IMG/VR virus record: IMGVR_UViG_3300024259_001623
Length of the DNA stretch: 64,000 nucleotides
Strand: one strand, 5' to 3'
DNA from: a virus
Lineage: Duplodnaviria; Caudoviricetes
Shown one piece after another: positions 50,315 through 64,000 of this stretch (the stretch's first letter is position 1; each line of letters starts with the position of its first letter). Made by a program: the position numbers and the translations under genes. The notes under the pieces are model-generated. The model did no database searches and was not told where the DNA came from. It was given only the letters and a program-made list of their open reading frames with translations.

Positions 50315-50533
50315 CTACCCTTTCATTAGGTTCGCTATCGTTCTGTTCTTTTCTTTTGTGACTGTCGTGTCAGGGAGATTCGGTTTGCTCAATTTCGTTC
50401 TGACAAGCCAGGCAATGGCCTTGCTTGTCGATACAGTCAACGCAAACTTCAGCGTGACAGCGTTGGCATTGATACAGCCAAGCTTGCTGTTCTTCTGTGC
50501 CGCATTGATGACAACGCGACTCGTAAGGTTCAT
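50315..50533 (-). CDS. Small basic hypothetical protein
   Basis: 72 aa; on the same strand as all genes in this region. Confidence 0.45.
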   Translation of the reverse strand: MNLTSRVVINAAQKNSKLGCINANAVTLKFALTVSTSKAIAWLVRTKLSKPNLPDTTVTKEKNRTIANLMKG

Positions 50534-50539
50534 TGTTCA

Positions 50540-50785
50540 TTAGGATTTCCCTTGTTCTGCTCTTTTCTTTTGTGCTGCTACCGTCAGGGGATGCTTGCGA
50601 ATGGGGAACCGAGCCTTTTGCCGCTCTGCATACTCTGCCAGATTCCTCTTCATTCTGGCGACGGCTTGTGTTGGCGTCAGTCCCATGATCGAGGCGGTGC
50701 GGACCATACCATTGATCAGTCCGTTATGCTCTATCTTGCTGCCCCAGAGCCGCTCTATTTCTTGTCGCCATTCGCCTTTTGTCAT
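50540..50785 (-). CDS. Small hypothetical protein
   Basis: ATG 50785 (MTKGEW) after AAAGGG, downstream of a TCCCTGA motif. Confidence 0.65.
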   Translation of the reverse strand: MTKGEWRQEIERLWGSKIEHNGLINGMVRTASIMGLTPTQAVARMKRNLAEYAERQKARFPIRKHPLTVAAQKKRAEQGKS

Positions 50786-50980
50786 TGTCTGATCCCTTTC
50801 TGCCCTTAACAATTGCGACTATTTGTTCAGGGATTGCTTGAGTTCATCCAAAAACCTTAACGCTTTGAGTTTCAGAATAAAAACATTTTCCTCAAAATTC
50901 CAATAGACGATAATGATAGCGATGGTTGCCAAGAAGTCCCACATGATTATATCCTTTCTGCCTTTAACAATTGCAGAGGT

Positions 50981-51196
50981 TTATTCAGGGAAAGGGTAAA
51001 CGTCCATTGCCCAAGGGAAGGCTTGGTGTAGGCCAGTCAGTGAGCTTTGGCAGAGCGTATGCCGTTCAGCTTGCCCATAGACCCTTATGGATTCTTTTAC
51101 CGTCCAGACCATCGTGGGCTTGTGCTTATTGCCCATCGTATCCAACAGAGTGAATTGCTGTCCGTTGTCTAGTGTGCAGAGTCCAACTTTAGCCAT
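50981..51196 (-). CDS. Small hypothetical protein
   Basis: 71 aa; AAAGGG RBS; ends across a TCCCTGA motif. Confidence 0.65.
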   Translation of the reverse strand: MAKVGLCTLDNGQQFTLLDTMGNKHKPTMVWTVKESIRVYGQAERHTLCQSSLTGLHQAFPWAMDVYPFPE

Positions 51197-51268
51197 TGTC
51201 TTACCCTTTCTGCCTTCTTTAATTATTGGCTTTATTTCAGGGGGCGAAAAATAAATGCAATAAAAAAA

Positions 51269-51308
51269 GATGTAGCCCCTAGCTTTTGCTAGTCGATTGG
51301 GCTACATC
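51269..51308 (-). terminator. Intrinsic terminator
   Basis: GATGTAGCCC/GGGCTACATC 10-bp stem followed by T7 on the minus strand. Confidence 0.75.
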
Positions 51309-51351
51309 TTCGGGAGGTCAGGGGCGACTTCTCGCCTCTGTGACTATGGTT

Positions 51352-51450
51352 CTAGTCGTCCAGTCCGTCCTCTTCGCTGTCCGTGCAGAGATGGAAGGGG
51401 CAAGTTTCGCAGTCGTCGTGGTCGCAGACAGTCTCGTGTGATTCGGGCAT
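51352..51450 (-). CDS. 32-aa Cys/acidic peptide
   Basis: MPESHETVCDHDDCETCPFHLCTDSEEDGLDD; below the ORF-track cutoff; similar to 62163..62315. Confidence 0.5.
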   Translation of the reverse strand: MPESHETVCDHDDCETCPFHLCTDSEEDGLDD

Positions 51451-51515
51451 TTTCGATTCCTTCTGTAAGAGGTTTGTTTCGCTACCCTTAACAATTGACC
51501 GTTACGCTTCAGGGA

Positions 51516-51854
51516 TCAGGACTTGATCGTCGTATGCCAGCGATTCCGGCAGGATGAGCATTTGCAACTGGCATCGCCAGTCCGGGTATTCAGGGTATAG
51601 AGTACCCGGGTGGACTTGCAAGCGGGGCAGGGGACTTCCGGAAGGGGGTCCGGGACGCTGTTGGTATCCTTCCAGGTCCCCCGGTCGCCGGTGTCGTGGG
51701 CGTTCAGGATTGCATCAGCTTCGGCAAGTTCTTCGCATTTTGTGCAAGTTTTTTCGTTGTGGTCGGCGGTAGAGGCCAGGACTTCGTTCCGGTGGGCTTC
51801 CAAGGCGTCGGCGGTCATGGTTTCAAGGGCGTTCATAATTCGGGAAGTGTTCAT
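51516..51854 (-). CDS. Small zinc-finger protein
   Basis: CTKC, CPAC, CKCSSC; AAAGGAG RBS. Confidence 0.75.
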   Translation of the reverse strand: MNTSRIMNALETMTADALEAHRNEVLASTADHNEKTCTKCEELAEADAILNAHDTGDRGTWKDTNSVPDPLPEVPCPACKSTRVLYTLNTRTGDASCKCSSCRNRWHTTIKS

Positions 51855-52049
51855 TTTGTAGCTCCTTTGTTGCCCTTAACAATTGACCGTTATTTATCAG
51901 GGAGATAGTAGGGAAAGAGAGAAAAGGCGATTCCATATCCTTTTTACAGGCCAATACGGGACAATCCAACTCTCTTTCGCCAGAGCCGATAGTTGACTCT
52001 CGGGAACATAAACCCTTCTCTACTGTCTCTTATGATTGATCGTTATTTA

Positions 52050-52160
52050 TCAGGGAATAAAGAATAGCAGGGCTACGACAACAGCAGCGCCAGCAACAGC
52101 AAAAGACGCAAAGCCTATAACCATGATAAGCTCGATCAACGTGAAAGCTGTTTTCTTCAT
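52050..52160 (-). CDS. 36-aa prepilin-type N-terminal methylation peptide
   Basis: MKKTAFTLIELIMVIGFASFAVAGAAVVVALLFFIP*; the stop codon is the TGA of a TCCCTGA motif. Confidence 0.7.
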   Translation of the reverse strand: MKKTAFTLIELIMVIGFASFAVAGAAVVVALLFFIP

Positions 52161-52205
52161 TGTTGTTCACTTCTCTTTTTGCGATTTTTTATTCTTGTTC
52201 AGGGA

Positions 52206-52367
52206 CTAAAGAAACCAGATAAAATTGCTGATGAAAAGGCAAAGAGCAGTAAGATAGAGAACTATTCCTATTTTTATTCTTGTACGGTTAGCTGTCCAGC
52301 CCATCTTACCGACGATGCAGGCGGTGAACAGTAGGGTAAAAGCTACAATCAGTATTATCAAAGCCAT
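52206..52367 (-). CDS. Small two-TM membrane protein
   Basis: MALIILIVAFTLLF...; AAGGAG RBS. Confidence 0.65.
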   Translation of the reverse strand: MALIILIVAFTLLFTACIVGKMGWTANRTRIKIGIVLYLTALCLFISNFIWFL

Positions 52368-52377
52368 TGTTTTCTCC

Positions 52378-52683
52378 TTATGCCTCATAAACGCATACTT
52401 GGCAGTTATTCAGGGGTTCGATCATGCCTCCAGCAGCGTTGACTTGTTCGATTGCTCTCATTAAGACTGGCTCTTGTGGCATACCGTATCGCCCGGTGTC
52501 GCCAGCCCAGATCGACGTTCCGCCGAAACAGGCGATCCACTCGAAAGGTCCATCCCAACAGAGCGTGGGACGTTCGAAACCCTTTTCTTGGCCGAGGATA
52601 GCGGGTTCGCCGTATTCCTTGGCGATGACGTTAAGGGCTTCAGCGAGAGTCTGTAGGAGTTCTTCTTGCTTCTTGTCGGTCAT
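52378..52683 (-). CDS. Hypothetical protein
   Basis: ATG 52683 (MTDKKQEE) after AAAGGGA. Confidence 0.7.
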   Translation of the reverse strand: MTDKKQEELLQTLAEALNVIAKEYGEPAILGQEKGFERPTLCWDGPFEWIACFGGTSIWAGDTGRYGMPQEPVLMRAIEQVNAAGGMIEPLNNCQVCVYEA

Positions 52684-53018
52684 TGTTATTCCCTTTCGGT
52701 AGTAAACAATAGATAGGGTTATAACAGGGAATTGGCTCGCCGACGATCCATCCATACAGAGAGAATGAGCAAGATCATGCCGCCGGGACCAGCGATGATT
52801 AACAGACTTGCAAGGACAACATCGAGGATTGTCATGAGTTCCATTGTTTGTTCCCTTTCAGTCTATTTCTTTTATGTTTGTTCTTCAGGGATTTAATCGG
52901 CACAAAACATCAAAACAAGCCCAATAACCCACATAACCATATTGCCAGTACATAGACCGACAATCAGAAGAATCAATCCTGCTAGTGCCATCTCTTTATC
53001 CTCTTATTTACAGGGATA

Positions 53019-53216
53019 TTATCCCACTCTGAATTTCTTATCTCTTTCCATAATTCGTTTGACAGTTGGCCAGGCCCACTCATAGCTGGCTCCGCTTTCA
53101 ATATCGACAACATGAGCGAAGTCGTGGAGTCTTCCAGCGATCATAGCTGGTTGATCGTTCAGTAAGCAGCTTTCGCCGGCGTACTGGTCTGCAATTTGTT
53201 GGATTGTTTCGTTCAT
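53019..53216 (-). CDS. Small hypothetical protein
   Basis: 65 aa; leader shared with 53470..53715. Confidence 0.7.
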   Translation of the reverse strand: MNETIQQIADQYAGESCLLNDQPAMIAGRLHDFAHVVDIESGASYEWAWPTVKRIMERDKKFRVG

Positions 53217-53414
53217 ACTCTTTCCCTTTTGTGTTTTTTATTCAGGGAGTCTTTGCTTCATAGCCCGTCGTACTTTTCTTCGGGCAAGGGTTTTCATTTT
53301 CCGGACAGAAGTTCTCCAAGGATTACAACAAGGGCAATGCCAACCACCAGGGCCAGAGTGAATATATCTATGATATATCTTTCCGAGTCCTTTTTTCCTT
53401 CCGGGCATCGTTGC

Positions 53415-53761
53415 CATTGTTTGTCCTTTCTACTCTTTCCCTTTTGAGTTTTTTATTCAGGGACGAAAATCAACCCAGCGGCCCTTGTTCCGGTGTATTG
53501 TAGCTGGGCCGGGGTTGTAAAGCCATGTGTTTATCGAACTTAGAAGTAAGCTGGATGCTGTCTATGGCATCTTTCGCATCTACCCCGGATACGTAACCTA
53601 CGCAGCGACCGGACGGGGTGTGAACAGTCCAGAGCGGGTAAGCGGGCTTGTCGCAATCGGGGCAGCGGAAGTTGTTTGTCAGTGTTCCGCAAGAGCATTC
53701 TCTGAGTTGATCCATTGTTTGTCCTTTCTACTCTTTCCCTTTTGCGTTTTTTATTCAGGGA
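53415..53761. repeat. 49-nt direct repeat (53415-53463 and 53713-53761) flanking one gene
   Basis: CATTGTTTGTCCTTTCTACTCTTTCCCTTTTG[A/C]GTTTTTTATTCAGGGA with one mismatch; partial third copy at 53216-53248. Confidence 0.95.
53470..53715 (-). CDS. Small protein with N-terminal zinc ribbon
   Basis: CSCG...CPDC. Confidence 0.7.
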   Translation of the reverse strand: MDQLRECSCGTLTNNFRCPDCDKPAYPLWTVHTPSGRCVGYVSGVDAKDAIDSIQLTSKFDKHMALQPRPSYNTPEQGPLG

Positions 53762-53896
53762 TTCTTTTTCAACCAGCAAATCAAGTCGATAATCCCTAAA
53801 AAGACAATCGTTAAGGAAATTGCCAGTCCTTTTTCTAGTGGAGTCATTCCCAGATCCTTTCGGCTTTTTTTATTTTGATTTATTTTTCAGGGAACG

Positions 53897-54256
53897 TTAC
53901 TGATTAGCCTTTTCATTGGCCTTTGTTTGTGCTCGGAGTAATTTTTGCATAAGATTCGCTGGCACCGGAGTCTTTCCGAGAGCATTGATAAAATCATCCA
54001 AAGCATCAGAAAGGTTACTAACCGATATCTGCAAGTCGTCGAGGTCTTGCAGTCGGTCGCCGATTCTTGTTTCTCGTTCGATAATATCGGCAAGTTGTGT
54101 TCTACGCCATTCTCTATCTGTTGGAACATCTGGCGAGCCATCAGGGAGCATTTGATCGAAAACAAATTTTTCGACCTTTATTCCTGCAACGTTGGCAAAA
54201 TGTGACTTAAGCATTTTTATCTCCGTTTGTTTTCTTCGCCGGGAATCTTTTGCCAT
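53897..54256 (-). CDS. Hypothetical coiled-coil protein
   Basis: 119 aa; the true start may be MLKSHF. Confidence 0.6.
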   Translation of the reverse strand: MAKDSRRRKQTEIKMLKSHFANVAGIKVEKFVFDQMLPDGSPDVPTDREWRRTQLADIIERETRIGDRLQDLDDLQISVSNLSDALDDFINALGKTPVPANLMQKLLRAQTKANEKANQ

Positions 54257-54389
54257 CTGGATAATACCATCTGGCTTCTTTCCCTACTGAGACAAGATAG
54301 ACAACAGACGGGCAGGGAGAACCGTATCTAGGTTCTGTCTTGACAATTGTTCCTCTCCCATCTTCTGTTCTAAAACGTACATGCTTCAT
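54207..54389 (-). CDS. Small hypothetical protein
   Basis: 60 aa; AAGGAG RBS. Confidence 0.6.
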   Translation of the reverse strand: MKHVRFRTEDGRGTIVKTEPRYGSPCPSVVYLVSVGKEARWYYPDGKRFPAKKTNGDKNA

Positions 54390-54424
54390 CCTGATATGAA
54401 AACTCCTTACTTATTCAGGGATAA

Positions 54425-54516
54425 CTGGGCCGGTAGGAGTCGAACCTACAAACGAAGGATGCGCAACCCTTCAACCGCCTCTCCGGCGGCGCGTCTGCCA
54501 ATTCCGCCACAACCCA
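54425..54516 (-). tRNA. Atypical class II tRNA (Leu/Ser-like) with a 5-nt anticodon loop
   Basis: TGGGTTG/CGGCCCA acceptor, Leu-type D arm GCGGAATTGGCAGACGC, CCGCC-GGAGA-GGCGG, 7-bp variable arm, GTAGG-TTCGACT-CCTAC. Confidence 0.75.
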
Positions 54517-54771
54517 ATAAAAAAGAGGAAAGGGTGAAAGGAACTACTCCGTCACTTTCTGCCCGCTTGCCTTCAGGCCCCTTTCCTTTTCGCAAAAACA
54601 TTTATCTCATGGCCGCAACCAAACGTTGTATGAGATAAAGAGGTCTTTGCTTGGATGCTCAATCCATTCTGTAGCAATTTTATCATTCTGGTCAGGGACT
54701 CTCGGCAACACCAATCCGGGCCGCAACAAGGCCGGGAATCCCTCTAAACCTTGCTGCGACCCTAGATATTG

Positions 54772-55101
54772 TTACGCCGGCGGTTCGACAATTTCGTTCG
54801 GCTGAAGGAAAAACATCTTATTTTCGACCGCGTTCTTTGCATCTCGCAAACTAAGGCCCGTCAAGTGACGGAGATACTTGATTGCCGGAATCTTGCGGCC
54901 GGAACTGACAAGATGCTGCATCTTGGCGTGATCGTCGCGTTCGATGGAAAAATCGGCGATGACGATAAGCGACTGATTGGCAAGATGACCCTCTTCCAAA
55001 ACTCGCAACGCCTGCTCCCGCATATCGCGGGTCATCGACGCCGAAGGGCAAACCAAAATGCTTCGGCTCAAGTCCATCGCTTGTATGGTAAAGCTGTTCA
55101 T
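54772..55101 (-). CDS. Protein with ribosomal protein L7/L12 C-terminal-like domain
   Basis: GRKIPAIKYLRHLTGLSLRDAKNAVE matches the bL12 CTD consensus KIxxIKxxRxxTGLGLKEAKxxVE. Confidence 0.7.
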   Translation of the reverse strand: MNSFTIQAMDLSRSILVCPSASMTRDMREQALRVLEEGHLANQSLIVIADFSIERDDHAKMQHLVSSGRKIPAIKYLRHLTGLSLRDAKNAVENKMFFLQPNEIVEPPA

Positions 55102-55161
55102 TGTTCATTTCCTCTTTGTAAGGGGTTTTCGTTCTTACCCTTTGTTATTGTTTGGGATTGT

Positions 55162-55422
55162 TCAGGGAAACTTTTTCAACAGCCGAAAATAGGCATAATC
55201 GGAAATCATATCGCTATTATGGACCTTACGCACAATTACGTTGTCCAGTTCTGCGTCTGGAAGGTTCGGGTCGTCGCACAAAAACATTTCGACGGCTCCA
55301 GCGGGCACATTCTCGCAATCGTAGGGAATCTGCTTCACGCCGCCGCGCCAAACTTGCTTGCCCCACAGCTTGCCGTCGCAGTTTTCTGGTCGAACGCCAG
55401 TATTGAAGTAAAAAGTTCTCAT
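55162..55422 (-). CDS. Small hypothetical protein
   Basis: 86 aa; AAAGGGA RBS. Confidence 0.7.
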   Translation of the reverse strand: MRTFYFNTGVRPENCDGKLWGKQVWRGGVKQIPYDCENVPAGAVEMFLCDDPNLPDAELDNVIVRKVHNSDMISDYAYFRLLKKFP

Positions 55423-55463
55423 TGTTTATTCCCTTTCTGCCTTTAACGATTGTTGTTATGGTT

Positions 55464-55754
55464 TCAGGGAGAAACTATAGCTTGATCTGAGTTAAACCGA
55501 CCGTCGAAAAGTTCGTCCACATGATGCAAAGAAACAAAATCGAGAGAGACACAACCCTCGAAAATATCGCCATTAGGAAAATGGACCTTAACCCTAAGAA
55601 GCCTGTCAGTCTTGGAATGATAGCCTAAAATATCTATAAAACGATGTTCATTTTTATGATGATTGACAGCAGGCAGTGGAGTATATCGCAGAGCCTCGCC
55701 ATGTTCCCCATTCCAGAGCTTACGAATTTCGTCATCAAGAGTATATCGAATCAT
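55464..55754 (-). CDS. Small hypothetical protein
   Basis: 96 aa; the stop is the TGA of the motif at 55464. Confidence 0.6.
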   Translation of the reverse strand: MIRYTLDDEIRKLWNGEHGEALRYTPLPAVNHHKNEHRFIDILGYHSKTDRLLRVKVHFPNGDIFEGCVSLDFVSLHHVDELFDGRFNSDQAIVSP

Positions 55755-55803
55755 TTTCTTATCCTTTCGATCTTTACAATTGAATATTATTCGTCAGGGA
55801 AAC

Positions 55804-55878
55804 TGGGCCCTGCTGGACTCGAACCAGCAACCGACGCTTTATGAGAACGCTGCTCTAAACCTGTTGAGCTAAGGGCCG
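55804..55878 (-). tRNA. tRNA-CAT, Ile2-like
   Basis: CGGCCCT-TA-GCTC...GAGC, GCGTT-CTCATAA-AGCGT, GCTGG-TTCGAGT-CCAGC, AGGGCCC-A. The body resembles bacterial tRNA-Ile2; C1:C72 mismatch; no CCA. Confidence 0.85.
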
Positions 55879-56109
55879 GTGCGGCTGGAGGGGGGTTAGC
55901 CCCTCCGAGCTTGTTCCTCCTGGATCAGGTCGATAACGTCGGCGAAGTGGTTGTAACCGAGCGACCCCTTGGTATAACGCTTAATCTCGCGTTCGGCATT
56001 CGTCAGATCGTAGCGAAGGGCGGCATCCGTCTTGCTGGTGAGAAGTCCCGATTCCTTGAGTTGCGTTGCGGTCATGGCTTTATCTCCTTTGTTAGCCTAC
56101 CGTTAATAA

Positions 56110-56298
56110 TTATATCGTCGGATTCAGGGAATTATAGACATTGTTCAAGACAGCAAAGGTAAAAAGTGCCGTTGCCATGTTGAAAATACATACTCCCCCA
56201 TTAAACCATGAAGCAGAATGAATAGCAAAAACAGCATTGGCAATGCCGCTGAAAAAATTGAACATACCGAGGAACCACAAAAATACCATACTTTTCAT
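56110..56298 (-). CDS. Small two-TM membrane protein
   Basis: Hydrophobic 62-aa ORF; AAAGGA RBS. Confidence 0.6.
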   Translation of the reverse strand: MKSMVFLWFLGMFNFFSGIANAVFAIHSASWFNGGVCIFNMATALFTFAVLNNVYNSLNPTI

Positions 56299-56516
56299 CG
56301 TTTATTCCTTTCGACCAGAAGAGATTTGTTGTTATTCTTCAGGGGAATTGTTCTCTTTAGCTTGCTTATCAAAAACTTTGTCTAAAGCCTGGAATAACAT
56401 TTTCTCTGAAACATCGCGGCCAAGACAGTAGCCGGCCCACGCTCCAACAGCGAATATGCCGATTAAAGCTCCGATTAGAATAGCAATCGTCATAGCATTA
56501 TTCCTTTGAGAGTATC

Positions 56517-56828
56517 TTAATACCTATCCCAACGCTTTAGTTCTTTTAGGATCAGGGATTCATCATCGGCGTGATTTTCTTTGTTGAGAGATACAGACTT
56601 TCCCCAACAAGAGACAACCAACTTGATTTGGGGGTCGATAATTCCTCTTTCTAATTCTTTTTCTGTTGGGTCTATCTCGCCGGCCATAATACGACAGAAG
56701 CCGGCCGATCTTACTAGGGATTGGTCCCAATTGCTAGGAACCATTGCGGCATGGTTTAAGTCAGCCGAGAAGACAACAACGGAGAATTGATCGGTAAACA
56801 ACTCAACAACAATGTATTTCATATCCAT
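56517..56828 (-). CDS. Hypothetical protein
   Basis: 103 aa; VVFS...H..M...VRSAGFC...CWGKSVSL. Confidence 0.75.
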   Translation of the reverse strand: MDMKYIVVELFTDQFSVVVFSADLNHAAMVPSNWDQSLVRSAGFCRIMAGEIDPTEKELERGIIDPQIKLVVSCWGKSVSLNKENHADDESLILKELKRWDRY

Positions 56829-56863
56829 ACAGATTATCCTTTTTCCGCGTCTTTTCAGGGAAG

Positions 56864-57067
56864 TTACCTATTGCCTAGCTTATAGAGAATAATCATAAAC
56901 AATAGGATTACGACAGCCATAAAAAGGCCACCAAAGCCCCACAGAGGCGACAAAACGACAAACCATGTGAAAGCATGGACACCTGCCAACTTGGTCACCA
57001 GAAGGTAAGCAAACGACAGAATCCAAGCGATAAACATCCAGGCCGGGGCCGTCAAGTCGAATTTCAT
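56864..57067 (-). CDS. Small two-TM membrane protein (WFVVLSPLW motif)
   Basis: ATG 57067 after AAAGGA. Confidence 0.7.
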   Translation of the reverse strand: MKFDLTAPAWMFIAWILSFAYLLVTKLAGVHAFTWFVVLSPLWGFGGLFMAVVILLFMIILYKLGNR

Positions 57068-57069
57068 TT

Positions 57070-57291
57070 TTATTTCCTTTTTCTGAGAACCCAACAGCTT
57101 TTCGCCTTGGGATCTTCATGCACGAACATTTCAACAGCATCGCCGACAGACGGAGCGAACCCCCAGCAACAACTGGTGTGGAATTCTCCCAAGTCATCGA
57201 CTTCCAACAACTTAGCCCCATCACGGTTAATGAAACCAGTGATAGTCCCACAATTGTTCGACGGTCGTTTGTAGAAACTTGTCATTTTCAT
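57070..57291 (-). CDS. Small hypothetical protein
   Basis: ATG 57291 (MKMTSF). Confidence 0.6.
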   Translation of the reverse strand: MKMTSFYKRPSNNCGTITGFINRDGAKLLEVDDLGEFHTSCCWGFAPSVGDAVEMFVHEDPKAKSCWVLRKRK

Positions 57292-57332
57292 ATTACTTCT
57301 CTTTTTTCTTTCTTTGTGCAGGGGAAAAATAC

Positions 57333-57381
57333 GAAGGGAAGCCGGCCGCAATTGCTACCCCGAGGGAGCCGACTTCCCTTC
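57333..57381 (-). terminator. Long hairpin, probable terminator or processing site
   Basis: GAAGGGAAG/CTTCCCTTC stem followed by GTATTTTT on the minus strand. Confidence 0.6.
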
Positions 57382-57590
57382 TCAAAACCATAATTAATCG
57401 CAATCTCTTATTATTTATTTTTTAGAGTTGTCAGAGCATGACTTTTCTCCTCGTGGGTTAGCAAATTATACTTGACATTCTTCTCTATAGTATACTTAGT
57501 AATTTTATGTTAATTGTCAGGGAGGCATAGTTTCCTTTCTACTATCTCTCTTAACCATACTTTACTATACTTGTCACATTTTCAGGGATG

Positions 57591-57818
57591 CTAATTGTTG
57601 TCGATATTGATAGTTACGAGCGTATGCCCGCCATCATGATCGACAGAACTAACAATGTCTGTGACCTTACCAAAAGCCAGCGTGTCACCAGGGAACTGTA
57701 CGATATACGTTTCTCCGATAGCTGGTATCCGAGCAGGGGCAACATCGAACAGATGGAATTGGTCGTTGTCTACTTCTTTGGCAAACTTAACTTGAATATT
57801 GATCGTAGCTTTAGACAT
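57591..57818 (-). CDS. Small hypothetical protein
   Basis: 75 aa between two motif copies. Confidence 0.65.
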   Translation of the reverse strand: MSKATINIQVKFAKEVDNDQFHLFDVAPARIPAIGETYIVQFPGDTLAFGKVTDIVSSVDHDGGHTLVTINIDNN

Positions 57819-57839
57819 TTTGATATCCTCTTCAGGGGT

Positions 57840-58007
57840 TTACCAGTTATTTACTTGATCGTCCGTTATACGATCATTTCTGTGAAGATCGTCAAGAAAA
57901 ATGACCCATGCTTGCCTCATTGCTGGTCTGTCATTTCTGCCATGTTGTTTCAGGATTGAAGGTCTGATTGTTTGGCAGAACTCTGCTTGGGCTTCTTGTC
58001 TTGTCAT
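57840..58007 (-). CDS. Small hypothetical protein
   Basis: MTRQEAQAEF...AMRQAWVIFLDDLHRNDRIT after AAAGGA. Confidence 0.65.
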   Translation of the reverse strand: MTRQEAQAEFCQTIRPSILKQHGRNDRPAMRQAWVIFLDDLHRNDRITDDQVNNW

Positions 58008-58035
58008 GGTTATTTCCTTTTTCGGGCAAAAAACA

Positions 58036-58067
58036 GGGGAAGGCTCAGGTGTTCCCAAGCCTTCCCC
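58036..58067 (-). terminator. Intrinsic terminator
   Basis: GGGGAAGGCT/AGCCTTCCCC stem followed by TGTTTTTT on the minus strand. Confidence 0.7.
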
Positions 58068-58077
58068 TTTGACGTTT

Positions 58078-58254
58078 TTACATAATGCCTTCATGGATAA
58101 GCCAGGAAACGTGGCCGTGTTCGCACCAGCCGTCCGGCTCGACCATGCAACCGTCTGTGGCTTCACAAACGCCGTCAAACATCCATTCTTCCAGTTGGTC
58201 CATACTCGGTTGCTGATCGGTCGGCGTCTTGTAGGGATACTTGGGACGGTCCAT
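58078..58254 (-). CDS. 58-aa putative metal-binding protein
   Basis: MDRPKYPY...GVCEATDGCMVEPDGWCEHGHVSWL; more plausible than the track's alternative frame. Confidence 0.65.
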   Translation of the reverse strand: MDRPKYPYKTPTDQQPSMDQLEEWMFDGVCEATDGCMVEPDGWCEHGHVSWLIHEGIM

Positions 58255-58314
58255 TTTTCGACTCCTGAAAAGGGGTTTCGTTCTCGACTACCTTTTATCA
58301 TTTTGATTGTTGTA

Positions 58315-58620
58315 TCAGGGAGTAATAATCAACTTGGCTTCTTTGACCCAATAGCAGTGGTCTTCTTCATCCCACTTAGACGCCAGGCCAAAAAAGAAAT
58401 GATCAAAACCATGTTTGACTGGTTTGTGCCATCCTTGTTTTCTGGCTTGACTTTTCGACGGGTAAAGTCCAGCAGCCACAAGCAAGTCAGACCAAAAAGC
58501 ATCGCCGACGACAACGAATGTAAACCATTCATCTGTATCAGGGATCGGGCCGAAAAACGCATCTCGGTCTGATTGGTTTACTCCATTGCCGACTAGAAAG
58601 TTTATTGATCTTCTTGGCAT
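58315..58620 (-). CDS. Small protein with S4-like RNA-binding motif
   Basis: DLLVAAGLYPSKSQARKQG resembles the S4 domain of TyrRS (AGLxxSxSEARRLIxQG). Confidence 0.55.
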   Translation of the reverse strand: MPRRSINFLVGNGVNQSDRDAFFGPIPDTDEWFTFVVVGDAFWSDLLVAAGLYPSKSQARKQGWHKPVKHGFDHFFFGLASKWDEEDHCYWVKEAKLIITP

Positions 58621-58676
58621 AACGTTATTTACTATTTTGTTTGATTTGTCAGGGAGATTATTTTAGGCGAAAAAAT

Positions 58677-58704
58677 AAGGGAAGCCAATTTCTCAGCTTC
58701 CCTT
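58677..58704 (-). terminator. Intrinsic terminator
   Basis: AAGGGAAGC/GCTTCCCTT stem followed by ATTTTTT on the minus strand. Confidence 0.7.
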
Positions 58705-58735
58705 ACCCTCCTCCAGCTTGTTTTAAGCCCCCTTG

Positions 58736-59047
58736 TTACAGAACAAGGCGGGTCGCCGCCTCATCAATCATACTGCCCTTAGTCCCTACCAACCGCCGCC
58801 CAAGGCCCTCTACGGCGTATCGGCGTGACGTTGGCGTATCCTCATCCGTTCGGGCGAGCTTGAGGATGGAAAGCCGAGCATTGCCGTCAACAAGAATATT
58901 GATAACGTCAAACGTCTTGCCCTTGGCTTTCGGGCCGTTGAGCTTATGCTTGATAACTCTCAGAGCGGAACGGGGGCAAAAAACTTCCGATATGCCCAAC
59001 TTGATATTGGCGACCTTACGCTTCTTTGCCTTCTTTTGCTTTGCCAT
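58736..59047 (-). CDS. Basic hypothetical protein
   Basis: 103 aa; GGAG RBS. Confidence 0.7.
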   Translation of the reverse strand: MAKQKKAKKRKVANIKLGISEVFCPRSALRVIKHKLNGPKAKGKTFDVINILVDGNARLSILKLARTDEDTPTSRRYAVEGLGRRLVGTKGSMIDEAATRLVL

Positions 59048-59118
59048 TGTCTTTTCTCCCAGAAAAAGGTTTTTGTTGTTGTCCTTTGCGACTACCTTTT
59101 ATGATTTCAATTGTTTTA

Positions 59119-59334
59119 TCAGGGAGATGGAACATCAGCATACGGAGCAAAATCTATCCGTATCGTTCCATTAGTTGCCACAACATGTTGATACACTTCC
59201 CCATCTTTTGTGTACCTATCCAAACGTTCAGGATGAAAACCTTTAACCCTAGTACAGAACCAATTAGCAGCCGAAACGCAGCCCATACGTCTTTTTTTCT
59301 TTTTCCACTCTTTAATCGCTTCTTCTATTCTCAT
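59119..59334 (-). CDS. Small hypothetical protein
   Basis: 71 aa; the stop is the TGA of a motif. Confidence 0.65.
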   Translation of the reverse strand: MRIEEAIKEWKKKKRRMGCVSAANWFCTRVKGFHPERLDRYTKDGEVYQHVVATNGTIRIDFAPYADVPSP

Positions 59335-59516
59335 ACCCTAACCATTTTTGTTTTTCTAATCAGGGAGAATATATAAGATAAGAGAGAACGTTCAGCCCCC
59401 TATCGCAAAAGAGAGGGCCGAACGTTTTTGCAATCAATCGCCCCTAACCTCTATGGTTAGGTAACTCTGCCGACGCTCATAATTGGCCGACAGAGCAACG
59501 ATTGCTCTCCCTTTTA

Positions 59517-59625
59517 GGCTCAAGTATTGGACTTGTCAGCGCTCTGCCAACTGAGCTATATCCCGGCTTTGCCGAGATAGCTGGACTCGAACCAGCGACC
59601 TTTGCATATCCAATAACGACTTGCC
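59517..59625 (-). ncRNA. Circularly permuted tRNA mimic, YrlA-type Y RNA candidate
   Basis: 5' to 3': closing stem, T-arm (GCTGG-TTCGAGT-CCAGC), acceptor stem capped by an AAA loop (TATCTCGGC/GCCGGGATA), D-arm (GCTC-AGTTGGCA-GAGC), closing stem (TATTGGA/TCCAATA; terminal GGC/GCC). Confidence 0.75.
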
Positions 59626-60027
59626 GCAACAGGACTATGCCTGCCCTTGGCCTAAATTCATTTTTAAGAAAAATGCAAGGGCGAGGCTTACTCCGCTGTA
59701 AGCCCCATCAGGAATTTTCCTTAGCCCTTGCTGACATCTTATTACGATTTCTGACTTGTTTTCAGGGAGACAAGGACAAAAATTATTTATCAATTTTCGT
59801 AGAAGATTTTCTCTTGTTTGTTTAGTATTTTAACTTTTTGTTAAAAGTACCAAGATACTTGTCTTTTTAGTCCTTGCTATGTCGGGGAGAGGAAGCTCTA
59901 TGCCGAGGTGTCTAGCTTAACAGGCATCGCTTCCTCTCCCCTAAACTGTACGTCCTTTGCGTCCTCTGCTCTCTTTTAGCATTACCCTTTTCAATTTTCG
60001 CTTGCTGGTCAGGGGAAACGGCTCCCC

Positions 60028-60606
60028 TTACCGCCGAACGATATACGCTTGCTTGTTCATGGTAATCGCTACGATGCTGGCGACCTTATAGTCGCGGAGA
60101 ATGATTTCCTTGTCGGTCTGTTGCGTTGCCGCCCGTCGCGGCTTGCTGAAGAATTCCCTTGCATCGGCCAACGTCGCAGCGTCCAATTCCTTGCCGTCGA
60201 GGCCGATATACTTGGCGTCAAGGGACTTTTCGACCTTCAATTCGACGTAGAATTGTCCCTTATGCTCGATCAGCGGCGTACCGTCGATCCGAGTTCCCCA
60301 TTTTCGAGGCTCGGCGACGAAAACGTCGGTATTGCCTTCTCGCTGGCGTTGGTTGTTGACCGAGTTGGCGTAACTCCAGCCGATCATGCAATTAACGCGA
60401 GAAACCTTAAACATCTTGCCGACAAACGGATTGCCAGTTTTCCGCATTTTCGGATCGGTTTTGGTTACGACCGTTACGAAATTGGCGCCCTTGTTGGCCC
60501 GCAGCATCGCAACCAATTGAGACTCATCAATGGCGATAACCGTCTGCTGGCCAGAAGTGTCGATAAAGAGTTGTTCGCTCGCAGTAATAGTCGCTGTCTT
60601 GCTCAT
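60028..60606 (-). CDS. Hypothetical protein
   Basis: ATG 60606 (MSKTAT) after AAAGG; WSYANSVNNQRQREG...RKWG...LIEHKG. Confidence 0.8.
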   Translation of the reverse strand: MSKTATITASEQLFIDTSGQQTVIAIDESQLVAMLRANKGANFVTVVTKTDPKMRKTGNPFVGKMFKVSRVNCMIGWSYANSVNNQRQREGNTDVFVAEPRKWGTRIDGTPLIEHKGQFYVELKVEKSLDAKYIGLDGKELDAATLADAREFFSKPRRAATQQTDKEIILRDYKVASIVAITMNKQAYIVRR

Positions 60607-60666
60607 TTTGTAACCTTTCTTTGTTAGGACTACCCTATACAATACCAGATTCTTTTTCAGGGAGAA

Positions 60667-60864
60667 TTAGATATTGATAAGTTTCACGCCCCATTGACAG
60701 CCGTAAGTTTTGAGAATTCTATCGTGTTCGTCCACTTCTGCGACATTATCGACAGAGATAGCAAAATCGCAACCTGTCAAATTTTCGAGAATATCGGCTT
60801 GGGCTTCTTCGATAGAATGATATTCTCCCACGCTTTCGTCGCTGTACCAAACCTTAATAATCAC
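60667..60864 (-). CDS. Small acidic hypothetical protein
   Basis: 65 aa; AGGAG RBS. Confidence 0.65.
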   Translation of the reverse strand: MIIKVWYSDESVGEYHSIEEAQADILENLTGCDFAISVDNVAEVDEHDRILKTYGCQWGVKLINI

Positions 60865-61183
60865 AATTCATCTCCTGTTCTTATATCTGACCATTCTGTA
60901 TCTACAATTTTTGTTTTGCCATTGTCAAAGCTGAAATGATAATCAGCATCAGAACCAACATCTCGCCGGGCATCTTCCATATCGCCTTCATGCTCAACAG
61001 TCAATTTGATAATGGCGTAAAAAGTTGATCGCATTGTTATATCCTTTCAAGGATAGGGATTTGTAAAAAATGAGTCAGGGAGATAGAAGTTGGTACTATC
61101 TCCCTCTGCATAATTTTTCGTTGTATCATAGGGTAGGAACGAAAAATTCAATGCAGGAGCTTTATTAAGCTCAACTCGTTATA

Positions 61184-61510
61184 CTACTCTTTATTTTTGT
61201 CGTTTTCTTCAGGGAGTTTCTCGCTTTTTGTCGCGCGATATTTATTTGGCTTACCGTTTGTAGCGTCAGTATGCCCTTCCTCGTAAAAATGTTGTGCAAC
61301 AGGGACCATAGATTTAACTGCATCTGCCTTGCCCGATAAATAAGCCGCCGGCAATACAGAAATCATCAAAACGCTCAAAGCAAGCAACGCCCCAGCGACG
61401 ACGTTTATTCTGAGTTCTTTATTATCAATCATAACCAGACTGCTTACGCATCCAGCCAAGGCTCCCATCGAAATAACCGTACAAGCTGTTAAGAAAAATA
61501 TCAGTCCCAT
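61184..61510 (-). CDS. Two-TM membrane protein (GxxDA family)
   Basis: Two hydrophobic helices, then EEGHTDATNG. Confidence 0.7.
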   Translation of the reverse strand: MGLIFFLTACTVISMGALAGCVSSLVMIDNKELRINVVAGALLALSVLMISVLPAAYLSGKADAVKSMVPVAQHFYEEGHTDATNGKPNKYRATKSEKLPEENDKNKE

Positions 61511-61544
61511 TTTGTTGTCCTTTCGTGTTACCTATCTGTATTTT

Positions 61545-61826
61545 CTACTCTTTTTCAGGGATCAATTCCCACTTCTCTTCGTGGACCTTTTGGTACTTAA
61601 TATCACCTTTGATTGCGTCAATTTGCCCTTGCTTGTAACCTTGTTTGTGGCCGTATTCTTCTCTGGCATTCCCTATGTCATGGCACAACAGAGGGACAAG
61701 TATTAGAAGGGAAAAAATCAAACATCCTCTAATGCTTGTAGAGATAAAGTTGTTATCTAATGACGCCAACAAGCAAAGAATAATTATGAATATCGCAGCC
61801 CAAGCGAATAATGCAATTGATAACAT
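61545..61826 (-). CDS. Two-TM membrane protein (GQIDA family)
   Basis: GYKQGQIDAIKGDIKY. Confidence 0.7.
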   Translation of the reverse strand: MLSIALFAWAAIFIIILCLLASLDNNFISTSIRGCLIFSLLILVPLLCHDIGNAREEYGHKQGYKQGQIDAIKGDIKYQKVHEEKWELIPEKE

Positions 61827-61838
61827 GATAAAACCTTT

Positions 61839-62135
61839 CTAGCCCATTAGTTCCTTTAGGCTCTTCGGTGTCCAATACATATCCCTTTCGACAGGGAGGC
61901 CCATCGGGCCGCGTAACTTCAACAGTTCCGACAACGAGAAATACCCCAATTCTTTCTCGAAACCATCGACCAAGCCGAAAAACCTATCAACTCCGTCGAA
62001 TTCGGTGATATACCAAGTCCAATTCCCATCAGGGGTGAAGAGTTTGACAACTGCCATAGTCTCTTCAAGAGACTTTTTCTCATTGGCATACAGCGGAGGA
62101 ATCTTAACTTTGAGTGCTTTGGTCAAAAGTTTCAT
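61839..62135 (-). CDS. DUF2958 family protein
   Basis: KLFTPDGNWTWYITE...FFGLVDGFEKELGYFSLSEL...ERDMYWTPK. Confidence 0.85.
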   Translation of the reverse strand: MKLLTKALKVKIPPLYANEKKSLEETMAVVKLFTPDGNWTWYITEFDGVDRFFGLVDGFEKELGYFSLSELLKLRGPMGLPVERDMYWTPKSLKELMG

Positions 62136-62162
62136 TGTTGTTCCCTTTCTACTCGTAATGAT

Positions 62163-62315
62163 TTAATCTTCAATATCAGGGAGATCGTGCTGGAACTCCT
62201 GATCCAAGAAAAGGTCAAAAGAATCATAAGAATCTGGCTCCTCCCAAAAGTAGGGGCATCCATCGCAAGTCGGACGGTCACAAGTCATACAAGCATCGTT
62301 TTCGCCATGAGCCAT
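62163..62315 (-). CDS. 50-aa Cys/acidic peptide
   Basis: MAHGENDACMTCDRPTCDGCPYFWEEPDSYDSFDLFLDQEFQHDLPDIED; AAAGGG RBS. Confidence 0.55.
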   Translation of the reverse strand: MAHGENDACMTCDRPTCDGCPYFWEEPDSYDSFDLFLDQEFQHDLPDIED

Positions 62316-62346
62316 TTTCTTACCCTTTATGTTGGTTGTTGATTGC

Positions 62347-62544
62347 CTACAGAAGAGGGTTTATTCCCGCTTTAATCAGGGAAAGATCAGTGATAGCATC
62401 GTTAAGATACTCATATTCGATATAGTCGCCGTCTGGAGCGTGTCGTTTGCTGCTCAGACGGAACATCTTACCGCAACGCTCGAAAGTATAGCCTTGCTTC
62501 CTGGCTCGCTTAGAGAGCCTCTTAAAATCATTGTCCACTTTCAT
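62347..62544 (-). CDS. Small hypothetical protein
   Basis: 65-aa ORF. Confidence 0.6.
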   Translation of the reverse strand: MKVDNDFKRLSKRARKQGYTFERCGKMFRLSSKRHAPDGDYIEYEYLNDAITDLSLIKAGINPLL

Positions 62545-62833
62545 CTTCCTTAGTTGTTTCCGATTTGACTATGCTTCTATAGGCATCTATTTGCCCTTTA
62601 ACGTATCCCTTTTGTTCTGCTAAAATCAGGGAACCATTCTCTTTTTCGCATTTATCATATCCTTCATGCCAGGCGATATTTGTAAAGCATCCAAACGCTC
62701 CAGCAGTAACCATAAGAAAAATAACGAAAAACACAAGTCCCCAACCGTCATCAGACGGAGCAGATACGCATGTCATGGATAACAATACCAGAAGCAACGC
62801 CAAAATGATGAAGAAAATTCCTAGCCCTAACAT
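62528..62833 (-). CDS. Two-TM membrane protein (GQIDA family)
   Basis: GYVKGQIDAYRS. Confidence 0.7.
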   Translation of the reverse strand: MLGLGIFFIILALLLVLLSMTCVSAPSDDGWGLVFFVIFLMVTAGAFGCFTNIAWHEGYDKCEKENGSLILAEQKGYVKGQIDAYRSIVKSETTKEDESGQ

Positions 62834-62862
62834 GGTAAATCCTTTCTATTTTCAGGGAGTTT

Positions 62863-63120
62863 TTAATCCGTCAGTATCTCTTTCTTTTTTTCGATACCTT
62901 CTCTATATCGTTCAATACGCCTAAACTCTATTTTCGAAACTTCTCCATCGTTCAAAGCATCTTCGATTTTTTCTTTGAGTTCAGGGAATTCTGCTTGCCA
63001 TTCTTTCAGAGAATCGTATTGAGACTCGGAAATTTCTTGACCATCCAAAACTGCGCCAACAAGAAGCAACGTGACCAAAGTTACGACAACAAGTGCGCAA
63101 CTCATTGCAAATTCTTCCAT
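62863..63120 (-). CDS. Single-TM membrane protein
   Basis: ATG 63120 (MEEFAM) after AGGAA. Confidence 0.65.
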   Translation of the reverse strand: MEEFAMSCALVVVTLVTLLLVGAVLDGQEISESQYDSLKEWQAEFPELKEKIEDALNDGEVSKIEFRRIERYREGIEKKKEILTD

Positions 63121-63124
63121 TTTA

Positions 63125-63406
63125 TTATTCCTTCTTTTCCCAAGCATCATTGTTAGAGGATTCTTTTTGTTCGTAATAAATCTCGCCATTGAGTGCATCA
63201 ACTTGGCCAGACTTATAACCATTTTCCCATACATGAGTTGTGAGCATTAAGATGGGGGTCACAAAGCACAATACTGCAAACAGGAATGGGACTAATGCCA
63301 GTCCATTCGGCTCTTTTTCATCAAAGAGAATGCAACTCCCGACTGCAAACAGCATACAGCCAAAAAGAAACATGATTGAGTAAACAACAACTGCTATCGT
63401 GAACAT
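63125..63406 (-). CDS. Two-TM membrane protein (GQIDA family)
   Basis: GYKSGQVDALNGEIYY. Confidence 0.7.
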   Translation of the reverse strand: MFTIAVVVYSIMFLFGCMLFAVGSCILFDEKEPNGLALVPFLFAVLCFVTPILMLTTHVWENGYKSGQVDALNGEIYYEQKESSNNDAWEKKE

Positions 63407-63431
63407 TATTTTTCCTTTCAATGTTACGTAA

Positions 63432-63573
63432 TACCCCTGGCAGGACTCGAACCCGAAACTCCACCATCATACATTTTCTTTATTGGAAGGCAGGGAGGTC
63501 CAGTCTCTAGCTTCCCATAATCATTATGTATTCTGGACATACGGTGTTGTTTTGCCAATTAAACTACAGGGGC
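63432..63573 (-). tRNA. tRNA body with 77 nt in place of the 7-nt anticodon loop
   Basis: GCCCCTG/CAGGGGT acceptor, GTTT-AATTGGCA-AAAC D arm, ACACC/GGTGG stem, CGGG-TTCGAGT-CCTG T arm. Confidence 0.7.
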
Positions 63574-63826
63574 GTGTGCTGTCCCATATACCGGCCCTAT
63601 CTCAATCTATTTTCTTTTACTCAGGGACAGCTATGAATAAAAGATCTTACTGAGACAGGGGAGAGTTTCCATTTTGGCCCAGGATTTTCAAACGATACTC
63701 TCCAAACGTATCCTTATCGGGCTGTCCTTAACGCATTATACTAGCTCCTTTCATTATTAGTAGCTTATATTATTGCTCTTACGTTAAGTATTAATTTCGT
63801 GTGTTGTTTCAGGGAGAACTACTTAA

Positions 63827-64000
63827 TCAGGTATAGATTTTCTCACCTTTATCCCAAAGATTCCCCTTGGCTTCTGATTTAATTGCAATAGCTTTAATCC
63901 ATTGTTGACGATGCTCTTCGCCGGAGAAAATCGATGGCATAGATTGTTTATCGCTAATCCGGATTATAGTAGCATGACGACCAATAGACAATGACTCAGT
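63827..64000 (-). CDS. Partial hypothetical protein (3' end)
   Basis: Open frame from the window end to TGA at 63827, followed by a motif at 63809. Confidence 0.5.
   Translation of the reverse strand, partial: TESLSIGRHATIIRISDKQSMPSIFSGEEHRQQWIKAIAIKSEAKGNLWDKGEKIYT

What the first reader, a model, noticed from the sequence alone, without database searches (positions are those of the whole stretch)
59517..59625. Circularly permuted tRNA mimic (YrlA-like Y RNA) with no Ro60 gene in view
Seen: the T-arm precedes the D-arm, the acceptor stem is a 9-bp hairpin closed by AAA, and the RNA ends emerge from an extended anticodon-position stem (TATTGGA/TCCAATA, with terminal GGCAAGTCG...CTTGAGCC). 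Established: bacterial YrlA Y RNAs have this connectivity, bind Ro60/Rsr through the terminal stem, and usually lie next to rsr; some phages encode them. No TROVE/Ro60 ORF is recognisable in this window. Inference: an early-expressed decoy for host Ro60-PNPase, tRNA-targeting nucleases or tRNA-modifying enzymes.
Basis: partly seen in the sequence, partly recalled or inferred. Interest (0 to 1): 0.8.

Follow-up and report, generated by a model that had tools for sequence, protein, structure and literature searches.

The report
Stray tRNA-shaped Y RNA in megaphage
A giant marine phage carries a real "inside-out tRNA" small-RNA gene of the Y RNA (YrlA) type; the phage does encode the partner protein Ro60, about 49 kb away, but this copy has lost most of the usual Ro60-docking sequence, so it is either an eighth Ro60 partner or an off-shoot with a new job.

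Summary
On the minus strand at 59517-59625 the T-arm precedes a 9-bp acceptor hairpin closed by AAA. The D-arm follows, and the two ends pair in a long stem. Rfam YrlA matches it end to end (38.8 bits, E 1e-5 over 16 kb). That is below Rfam's cut-off of 69, but so are phage Y RNAs that lie beside Ro60 (27-45 bits).

"No Ro60" is a window artefact. Walking along metagenome contigs found a full-length Ro60 gene about 48.7 kb upstream on the same strand. Seven Y RNAs precede it; earlier reports of this scan described that array.

This RNA is a diverged duplicate of the sixth array member (85% identity in the tRNA part). All 18 stem pairs are kept across the four tRNA-type paralogs, nine of them through double changes.

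Its terminal stem is rebuilt. It lacks GNCGAA (it has GUCGUU) and GGUUAUC, and its 5' handle scores like background.

In seven other large Ro60 phages, Y RNAs lie 7 to over 100 kb from Ro60, and eight of the ten examined keep the full canonical handle.

Verdict: a real, selected Y RNA paralog, a variant of a known kind. Ro60 binding is uncertain and expression is untested.

The parts
59517..59625 (-). The whole YrlA-type RNA (109 nt as drawn; the Rfam match spans 59513-59626)
59617..59625 (-). 5' strand of the terminal stem, GGCAAGUCG. It holds GUCG followed by UU, not the GNCGAA of Y RNA handles.
59517..59524 (-). 3' strand of the terminal stem, CUUGAGCC. With the preceding A it reads ACUUG, the usual 3' handle word.
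59608..59615 (-). Helix II, 5' strand UAUUGGAU. It pairs with 59525-59532 and corresponds to helix GUAUUGGUU/AACCAUAC of array member Yf.
59525..59538 (-). 3' strands of the 4-bp anticodon-position stem and of helix II
59580..59596 (-). T-arm GCUGG-UUCGAGU-CCAGC, preceded by the variable-loop-like AGGUC
59559..59579 (-). Closed acceptor hairpin: 9 bp with an AAA loop
59541..59556 (-). D-arm GCUC-AGUUGGCA-GAGC, preceded by U8 A9
59672..59731 (-). Branched hairpin just upstream (GCAAGGGC...GCCCUUGC), followed by AUUUUUC. It is a separate structured element and a possible terminator of the preceding unit.
   Evidence: z -4.8
59383..59505 (-). Three further hairpins downstream of the RNA, within the same ORF-free unit
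59762..59768 (-). TCCCTGA motif that opens the roughly 400-nt unit holding the RNA. It is one of 40 co-oriented copies in 50.3-63.8 kb.
59360..59366 (-). TCCCTGA motif that closes the unit, 26 nt before the start codon of the next mini-gene (59334)

Best explanation
This is a functional small RNA gene of the YrlA (tRNA-mimic Y RNA) architecture. It arose by duplication of the sixth member (Yf) of the phage's own seven-gene Y RNA array beside Ro60, and now sits about 49 kb downstream on the same strand, inside an array of mini-genes. Shown here: the fold, the paralogy, selection on the stems, and a Ro60 gene in the genome. Inferred: the RNA is cut out of a longer transcript of its TCCCTGA-bounded unit. 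Its tRNA-like elbow is treated by host tRNA enzymes as in bacterial YrlA. Its paired ends dock, probably more weakly or differently, on the phage Ro60 ring. It would then act as an eighth adaptor that couples Ro60 to a partner such as host PNPase, possibly at a different time of infection from the array.
For: The Rfam YrlA match is full length, and the predicted fold has the same layout as Yf. It is 85.5% identical to Yf over the tRNA-like domain, against 66-68% for all other paralog pairs. Across the four tRNA-type paralogs, 72 of 72 cells pair and 9 of 18 pairs changed on both sides; with partners slid by 1-3 columns only 33-50% pair. Helix II also keeps its pairing through changed bases. 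A full-length Ro60 lies in the same genome on the same strand: TROVE 1e-34, vWA_Ro60 6e-47, E 4e-113 to PDB 1yvp. The 5' GUCG and 3' ACUUG words are retained. GNCG followed by AU, UA or CU also occurs in other phage Y RNAs, and the 5' 12 nt match 10 of 12 with the handle of the G039 Y RNA. Y RNAs far from the single Ro60 gene occur in seven other large phages. Chen et al. 2014 (PMC4201824) note that Ro60 contacts mainly the 5' strand.
Against: There is no GNCGAA or CGAA motif, whereas each of the seven array RNAs has one. There is no GGUUAUC motif. The 5' handle scores -2.3 bits on a weight matrix where 16 true handles score 4.5-25.4 when each is left out, and 122 of 873 random GNCG sites in the window do as well. 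The canonical bulged-C register cannot be drawn. No sigma-70-type promoter or U-run terminator belongs to it. In a longer context the terminal stem competes with upstream sequence. No transcript evidence and no diverged ortholog are available.
Confidence: 0.45

Rival explanations
1. It is a Ro60-independent tRNA mimic. In this reading a Y RNA copy lost its Ro60 handle but kept the tRNA elbow on a closed rod, and now acts alone. It might titrate or recruit a protein that recognises the tRNA elbow or acceptor (RNase P, CCA-adding enzyme, TruB or Dus, or a host defence or phage factor).
For: The handle motifs are lost while every stem of the tRNA part and of the rod stays intact. It lies in a block that also holds tRNAs and another anticodon-less tRNA look-alike. 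One 97%-complete 170-kb phage (G002) has a YrlA-like RNA and no detectable TROVE gene. Of ten dispersed Y RNAs examined in other phages, eight keep all three canonical handle words, so distance from Ro60 alone does not explain the loss here.
Against: No Ro60-independent function is known for any YrlA-type RNA. The ends still pair, and GUCG and ACUUG remain. A Ro60 gene is present in the genome. There is no candidate partner.
Confidence: 0.3
2. It is an RNA processing signal. The tRNA-like fold would serve as an RNase P or RNase Z cut site that punctuates the long mini-gene transcript, as tRNAs do elsewhere. The released RNA would be a by-product.
For: Two true tRNAs in the same block abut TCCCTGA motifs. 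The M. smegmatis YrlA is cut by RNase P in its acceptor hairpin (PMC4201824). No promoter of its own was found.
Against: A plain tRNA would do the job. This reading does not explain the conserved rod and the paired ends. Chen et al. tie RNase P cleavage to a 7-bp acceptor stem, and this stem has 9 bp.
Confidence: 0.1
3. It is a decaying, non-functional duplicate of Yf.
For: Handle motifs are lost. Relatives at 46-60% identity of the neighbouring protein have no such RNA within 4 kb of that gene.
Against: All 18 pairs of the tRNA part are intact. The stem differences from Yf are either compensated on both sides (two pairs) or turn a U-G wobble into a C-G pair. Helix II and the terminal stem still pair.
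Confidence: 0.1
4. It is a circularly permuted tRNA gene whose product is cut and rejoined into a decoding tRNA.
For: The 3' half precedes the 5' half. The phage encodes several RNA ligases.
Against: Joining the ends would close a rod of about 20 bp, not a 5-bp stem with a 7-nt anticodon loop. No bulge-helix-bulge motif is present. The acceptor end is closed by a loop without an encoded CCA. The closest relatives are Y RNAs with Ro60 handles.
Confidence: 0.02

Closest known systems
YrlA, the tRNA-like bacterial and phage Y RNA (Rfam RF02553; Chen et al. 2014, PMC4201824)
   Same: The order is T-arm, closed acceptor stem-loop, D-arm. The tRNA tertiary nucleotides are present (U8, A14, G15:C48, G18G19, U54U55C56, A58). 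The ends pair in a long stem. It is on the same strand as Ro60.
   Different: It lies 48.7 kb from Ro60 instead of within 4 kb. It has no GNCGAAN0-1G motif. It scores 38.8 bits against Rfam's cut-off of 69. The acceptor hairpin has 9 bp.
The phage's own Ro60-linked array of seven Y RNAs, especially member Yf (L021:5796-5926)
   Same: The tRNA-like domain is 85.5% identical, including the same GGCAAAGCC tip of the acceptor hairpin. The overall architecture matches.
   Different: Yf has CUGGGUCGAAUG...GGUUUAUCA...AACUUACCUAG and a U-run after it. The stray copy has GGCAAGUCGUUAUUGG...ACUUGAGCC, is about 20 nt shorter, and has no U-run.
Yrl1 and Yrl2 of Thermus phage phiLo with phage Ro60 (PMC12135203)
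   Same: These are phage-encoded Y-like RNAs that serve a phage Ro60. That paper reports a RYPER-like complex with host PNPase, which is the model for how this RNA could work.
   Different: Those RNAs lie directly upstream of Ro60, carry the CGAA motif in a bulge, and are not described as tRNA mimics.
Dispersed Y RNAs of other large Ro60 phages in IMG/VR
   Same: They are tRNA-mimic modules on paired ends, 7.5 to over 100 kb from the only TROVE gene.
   Different: Eight of the ten examined keep GNCG-N8-10-GGUUAUC (GGUUAAC in one)...ACUUG-type words. The RNA in this window does not.

Membership tests
YrlA / bacterial-phage Y RNA (RF02553; Chen et al. 2014) | tRNA-like domain in the order T-arm, closed acceptor stem-loop, D-arm | tested here: met
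   Covariation among four paralogs: 72 of 72 cells paired, and 9 of 18 pairs changed on both sides.
YrlA / bacterial-phage Y RNA (RF02553; Chen et al. 2014) | Conserved tRNA tertiary nucleotides, including the G15:C48 Levitt pair | tested here: met
   Read from the sequence: U8, A14, G15, G18G19, A21, C48, U54U55C56, A58 are all present.
YrlA / bacterial-phage Y RNA (RF02553; Chen et al. 2014) | 5' and 3' ends pair to form the stem that carries the Ro60 site | tested here: met
   The stem forms in the 109-nt and 124-nt contexts. In 146 nt it competes with upstream sequence.
YrlA / bacterial-phage Y RNA (RF02553; Chen et al. 2014) | GNCGAAN0-1G motif near the 5' end (CGAA motif in PMC12135203) | tested here: not met
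   There are 0 occurrences on the RNA strand of 59335-60027, against 7 in the array, one per RNA. The nearest words are GUCGUU and GGCAAG. Weight-matrix score is -2.3 against 4.5-25.4 for true handles.
YrlA / bacterial-phage Y RNA (RF02553; Chen et al. 2014) | Encoded within about 4 kb of Ro60 on the same strand | tested here: not met
   The strand is the same, but the distance is about 48.7 kb by a chain of overlapping contigs. Seven other phages break the same rule.
YrlA / bacterial-phage Y RNA (RF02553; Chen et al. 2014) | Reaches Rfam's gathering score (69 bits) | tested here: not met
   It scores 38.8 bits. Y RNAs beside Ro60 in this and other phages score 27-45 bits, so the cut-off excludes true phage members too.
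YrlA / bacterial-phage Y RNA (RF02553; Chen et al. 2014) | YUAY at the start of the variable region (GGUUAUC in phage Y RNAs) | tested here: inconclusive
   UUAU follows GUCG directly. At the position equivalent to Yf's GGUUUAUCA the RNA reads GGAUAUGCA.
YrlA / bacterial-phage Y RNA (RF02553; Chen et al. 2014) | Bound by Ro60; carries tRNA modifications | not testable with these tools
   Needs gel shift or RIP, and modification mapping.
Circularly permuted tRNA genes (Cyanidioschyzon type) | Joined ends give a normal anticodon arm, with a processing motif at the junction | tested here: not met
   The ends form a rod of about 20 bp. No 7-nt loop and no bulge-helix-bulge motif is present.
tRNA (RF00005) | Cloverleaf detected by ARAGORN or Rfam | tested here: not met
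   Searches give no tRNA call at this site.

The most novel reading that the evidence does not exclude
A Y RNA copy escaped the Ro60 locus, shed the Ro60-docking words while keeping a perfect tRNA elbow on a closed rod, and now works without Ro60. It would act as a stand-alone tRNA-shaped decoy or adaptor in the phage's mini-gene (host take-over) block. That would be the first Y-RNA-derived RNA with a Ro60-independent role.
Probability: 0.3. Interest if true: 0.65.

Novelty: new variant of a known kind. Interest (0 to 1): 0.42.

Why it matters
Bacterial and phage Y RNAs have been found and defined by two rules: they lie beside Ro60, and they carry GNCGAA. This RNA breaks both rules, yet it is clearly derived from a canonical Y RNA and is kept in shape by selection. 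The small survey done here also shows that large phages often scatter Y RNAs tens of kilobases from Ro60, so searches limited to the Ro60 neighbourhood undercount them. The Yf/stray-copy pair is a natural swap experiment: nearly the same tRNA module on two different handles. It could show which handle features Ro60 really needs.

Tried and rejected
- No whole genome is held for this window. The Ro60 locus was reached by six hops of the look-up of encoding contigs.
- Phage GenBank collection: there is no near match to 48-64 kb. Only tRNA-like 60-nt matches appeared, to mycobacteriophages and to Erwinia phage Cronus.
- IMG/VR exact and semi-degenerate patterns of this RNA gave 0 hits.
- One metagenome-contig scan gave 0 hits. 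That collection evidently lacks these samples.
- The zf-like neighbour protein has no IMG/VR relative. Ro60 as a single query found one fragment.
- Nine contigs that carry the RNA turned out to be 100% identical to the window over 5 kb. My earlier impression of strain variants came from gene-calling differences only. They give no independent conservation evidence.
- Sequencing runs: no RNA holder was listed. Fifteen seawater DNA runs hold the stretch. Laying four of them showed no variant letters.
- Relatives of the adjacent 204-aa protein at 46-60% identity (L147, L149, L150) have no YrlA-like RNA within 4 kb.
- The sigma-70 promoter and terminator scan found nothing that belongs to the RNA.
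- A GGGCCGAACG word at 59417 on the plus strand is part of a hairpin stem. I rejected it as a handle.
- Complex prediction was not used, because it cannot take RNA.

Full report
**What is there.** The reverse complement of 59517-59625 reads, 5' to 3':
- a terminal strand GGCAAGUCG;
- helix II strand UAUUGGAU;
- a 4-bp stem;
- a variable-loop-like AGGUC;
- a T-arm (GCUGG-UUCGAGU-CCAGC);
- a 9-bp hairpin closed by AAA (UAUCUCGGC-AAA-GCCGGGAUA);
- U8 A9 and a D-arm (GCUC-AGUUGGCA-GAGC);
- the returning strands GUCCAAUA and CUUGAGCC.

RNAfold gives exactly this layout (-38.6 kcal/mol, z -2.4). Rfam's YrlA model aligns over its full 114 positions to 59513-59626 on the minus strand at 38.8 bits, with E 5e-7 over 651 nt and 1.3e-5 over 16 kb. 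ARAGORN and the Rfam tRNA model do not call it. The nucleotides that build the tRNA elbow are all in place: U8, A14, G15:C48, G18G19, U54U55C56 and A58.

**Surroundings.** The window is from an uncultured virus; no genome is held and there is no near match among GenBank phages. At about 50.2 kb the composition jumps from about 30% to about 44% G+C. From there to the window's end, small minus-strand genes are punctuated by 40 co-oriented TCCCTGA motifs (6.4 expected in the whole window). These mostly lie 40-55 nt before a start codon.

The RNA lies in a 693-nt ORF-free island (59335-60027) that folds far better than shuffles (z -7.7). It sits inside a roughly 400-nt unit bounded by TCCCTGA at 59762-59768 and 59360-59366. 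A branched hairpin followed by AUUUUUC lies just upstream (59672-59731, z -4.8). No sigma-70-type promoter or U-run terminator belongs to the RNA, so processing from a longer transcript is the likelier route. That is inference.

**Ro60 is in the genome.** Earlier notes of this scan (e1-5379465, e1-5379482) said that Ro60 with seven Y RNAs lies 44 kb beyond the window. I checked this independently by walking along overlapping metagenome contigs with exact protein look-ups. L021:6122-7792 encodes a 556-aa protein with:
- TROVE (1.4e-34) and vWA_Ro60 (6e-47) domains;
- E 4e-113 to Xenopus Ro60 (1yvp) and 1e-103 to Deinococcus Rsr (2nvo).

By the coordinate chain (window = 116135 minus L021 position) it occupies about 108.3-110.0 kb in window numbering. 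It is on the same strand as the RNA, whose 5' end is about 48.7 kb downstream of the Ro60 stop codon. The 1.4-kb island in front of Ro60 holds exactly seven GNCGAA words, each opening a Y RNA. Three of these (here Ye, Yf, Yg) carry the inside-out tRNA.

**Relationship to the array.** Over the tRNA-like domain the stray RNA is 85.5% identical to Yf, while all other paralog pairs are 66-68% identical. The two share the acceptor-hairpin tip GGCAAAGCC.

On the four-sequence alignment, the three helices of the tRNA part pair in 72 of 72 cells. Nine of 18 pairs changed on both sides. Sliding the partners by 1-3 columns gives 33-50% pairing and at most two such pairs. Between the stray copy and Yf, the stem differences are A-U to U-A and U-G to C-G in the T stem, and A-U to C-G in the acceptor. 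Helix II is also kept with changed bases. So this is a duplicate that has stayed under selection for structure, not a decaying copy.

A covariance model of the tRNA-mimic core (R1) finds only this RNA and the three array members in the roughly 116 kb I hold (70-84 bits; next best 25.5 bits).

**The handle is rebuilt.** Chen et al. 2014 (PMC4201824) define bacterial and phage Y RNAs by three things: a GNCGAAN0-1G motif near the 5' end, the tRNA-like domain, and a position within about 4 kb of Ro60 on the same strand. The Thermus phage phiLo study (PMC12135203) also uses the CGAA motif.
- The stray RNA has no GNCGAA. It reads GGCAAGUCGUUAUUGG, that is, GUCG followed by UU.
- It also lacks the GGUUAUC word that follows GNCG by 8-10 nt in 15 of the 16 phage handles I collected (GGUUAAC in the other).
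- On a weight matrix built from those 16 handles, each true handle scores 4.5-25.4 bits when left out. The stray RNA scores -2.3, and 122 of 873 random GNCG sites in the window do as well.
- What remains is GUCG, the 3' word ACUUG, and a closed stem. That stem can be drawn as GGC/GCC plus UCG/UGA, or as GG/CC plus CAAG/CUUG with UCGU bulged.
- The first 12 nt match the handle of one other phage's Y RNA (G039, GGCAAGCCGAUA) at 10 of 12 positions.
- In other phage Y RNAs the two bases after GNCG can be AU, UA or CU, so AA is not obligatory.
- Chen et al. stress that Ro60 contacts mainly the 5' strand.

Binding is therefore possible but not predicted by sequence.

**Are stray Y RNAs unusual?** I aligned 25 Ro60 homologs and found 294 Ro60-encoding IMG/VR stretches. 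I scanned 39 records of at least 60 kb with R1.
- 25 records had hits.
- In 16 records a hit lies within 4 kb of Ro60.
- Ten records had hits farther away.
- After fetching and folding those, some proved to be tandem tRNAs with a visible CCA end.
- Closed-acceptor modules remain in seven records, each with a single TROVE gene: G023 (7.5 kb), G027 (9.8 and 12.4 kb), G026 (55-59 kb), G039 and G040 (57-64 kb), G032 (44-138 kb) and G020 (at least 131 kb).
- Eight of the ten modules I examined carry all three canonical handle words.

So distance from Ro60 is a recurrent feature of large phages, although the 2014 survey found nearly all best matches within 4 kb. Loss of the handle words is what sets this copy apart.

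Separately, a pattern scan found YrlA-like RNAs beside TROVE in two complete phages, at 27-45 bits. It also found one in a 97%-complete 170-kb phage with no detectable TROVE gene.

**What could not be learned.**
- All nine contigs that carry the RNA are 100% identical to the window over 5 kb, and reads from further runs show no variants. There is therefore no orthologous covariation.
- More distant relatives of the neighbouring 204-aa gene lack the RNA within 4 kb.
- No RNA run was listed.

**Verdict.** This is a real, structurally selected YrlA-type RNA. It is the eighth such gene of a megaphage that does encode Ro60. I rate the rival readings as follows:

| Reading | Probability |
|---|---|
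| Works with Ro60 | about 0.45 |
| Ro60-independent tRNA mimic | about 0.30 |
| Processing signal | 0.10 |
| Relic | 0.10 |
| Permuted tRNA gene | 0.02 |

It is a new variant of a known kind. Interest is moderate.

Noticed in passing
window 50200-64000: G+C jumps sharply from about 30% to about 44%. The block holds mini-genes and RNA genes on the minus strand, with 40 co-oriented TCCCTGA motifs. These mostly lie 40-55 nt before a start codon, and two directly abut the 3' ends of tRNA genes (55794-55800 and 54415-54421).
   Followed up: partly
window 63432-63573 (-): A tRNA-shaped gene with a 77-nt insertion in place of the anticodon loop (Rfam tRNA 36.2 bits).
   Followed up: no
window 59672-59731 (-): A branched hairpin of about 60 nt (z -4.8), followed by AUUUUUC, lies 45 nt upstream of the Y-like RNA. 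It could be a terminator or a separate small RNA.
   Followed up: partly
L021:4763-6075 and loci L231-L246: Phage Y RNAs from unrelated large phages share GGUUAUC 8-10 nt after GNCG, and ACUUG on the 3' side. From my own knowledge, the same words occur in nematode stem-bulge RNAs and vertebrate Y RNAs. The minimal array members hit Rfam's nematode sbRNA family weakly (21-25 bits).
   Followed up: partly
IMG/VR records G020, G023, G026, G027, G032, G039, G040: Canonical tRNA-mimic Y RNAs lie 7.5 to over 100 kb from the only TROVE gene, some on the opposite strand. This is contrary to the 'within 4 kb, same strand' rule of the 2014 survey.
   Followed up: yes
IMG/VR record G002 (L066:3666-3728): A 170-kb phage record, 97% complete, has a YrlA-like RNA (31 bits on Rfam, 54 bits on R1) on a perfect 9-bp terminal duplex and no detectable TROVE gene.
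   Followed up: partly
L021:4727-4765: The first Y RNA of the Ro60 array is preceded by a near-consensus sigma-70-type promoter (TTGCGT, 17 nt, TATAAT), read by eye. The stray copy has nothing comparable.
   Followed up: no
L017:1109-2236, L018:6059-7222, L021:1071-3567: Between the stray RNA and Ro60 the phage encodes an Rnl2-like ligase, a metallophosphoesterase, a PARP-domain protein, an Rnl1-type ligase, a sigma factor and an intein-split RNA ligase. These come from Pfam tags in the contig look-ups.
   Followed up: no
window 60028-60642 (-): The 204-aa protein next to the RNA has no Pfam or PHROG family but has 82 metagenomic homologs down to 34% identity, so it belongs to a real, unnamed phage protein family.
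   Followed up: partly
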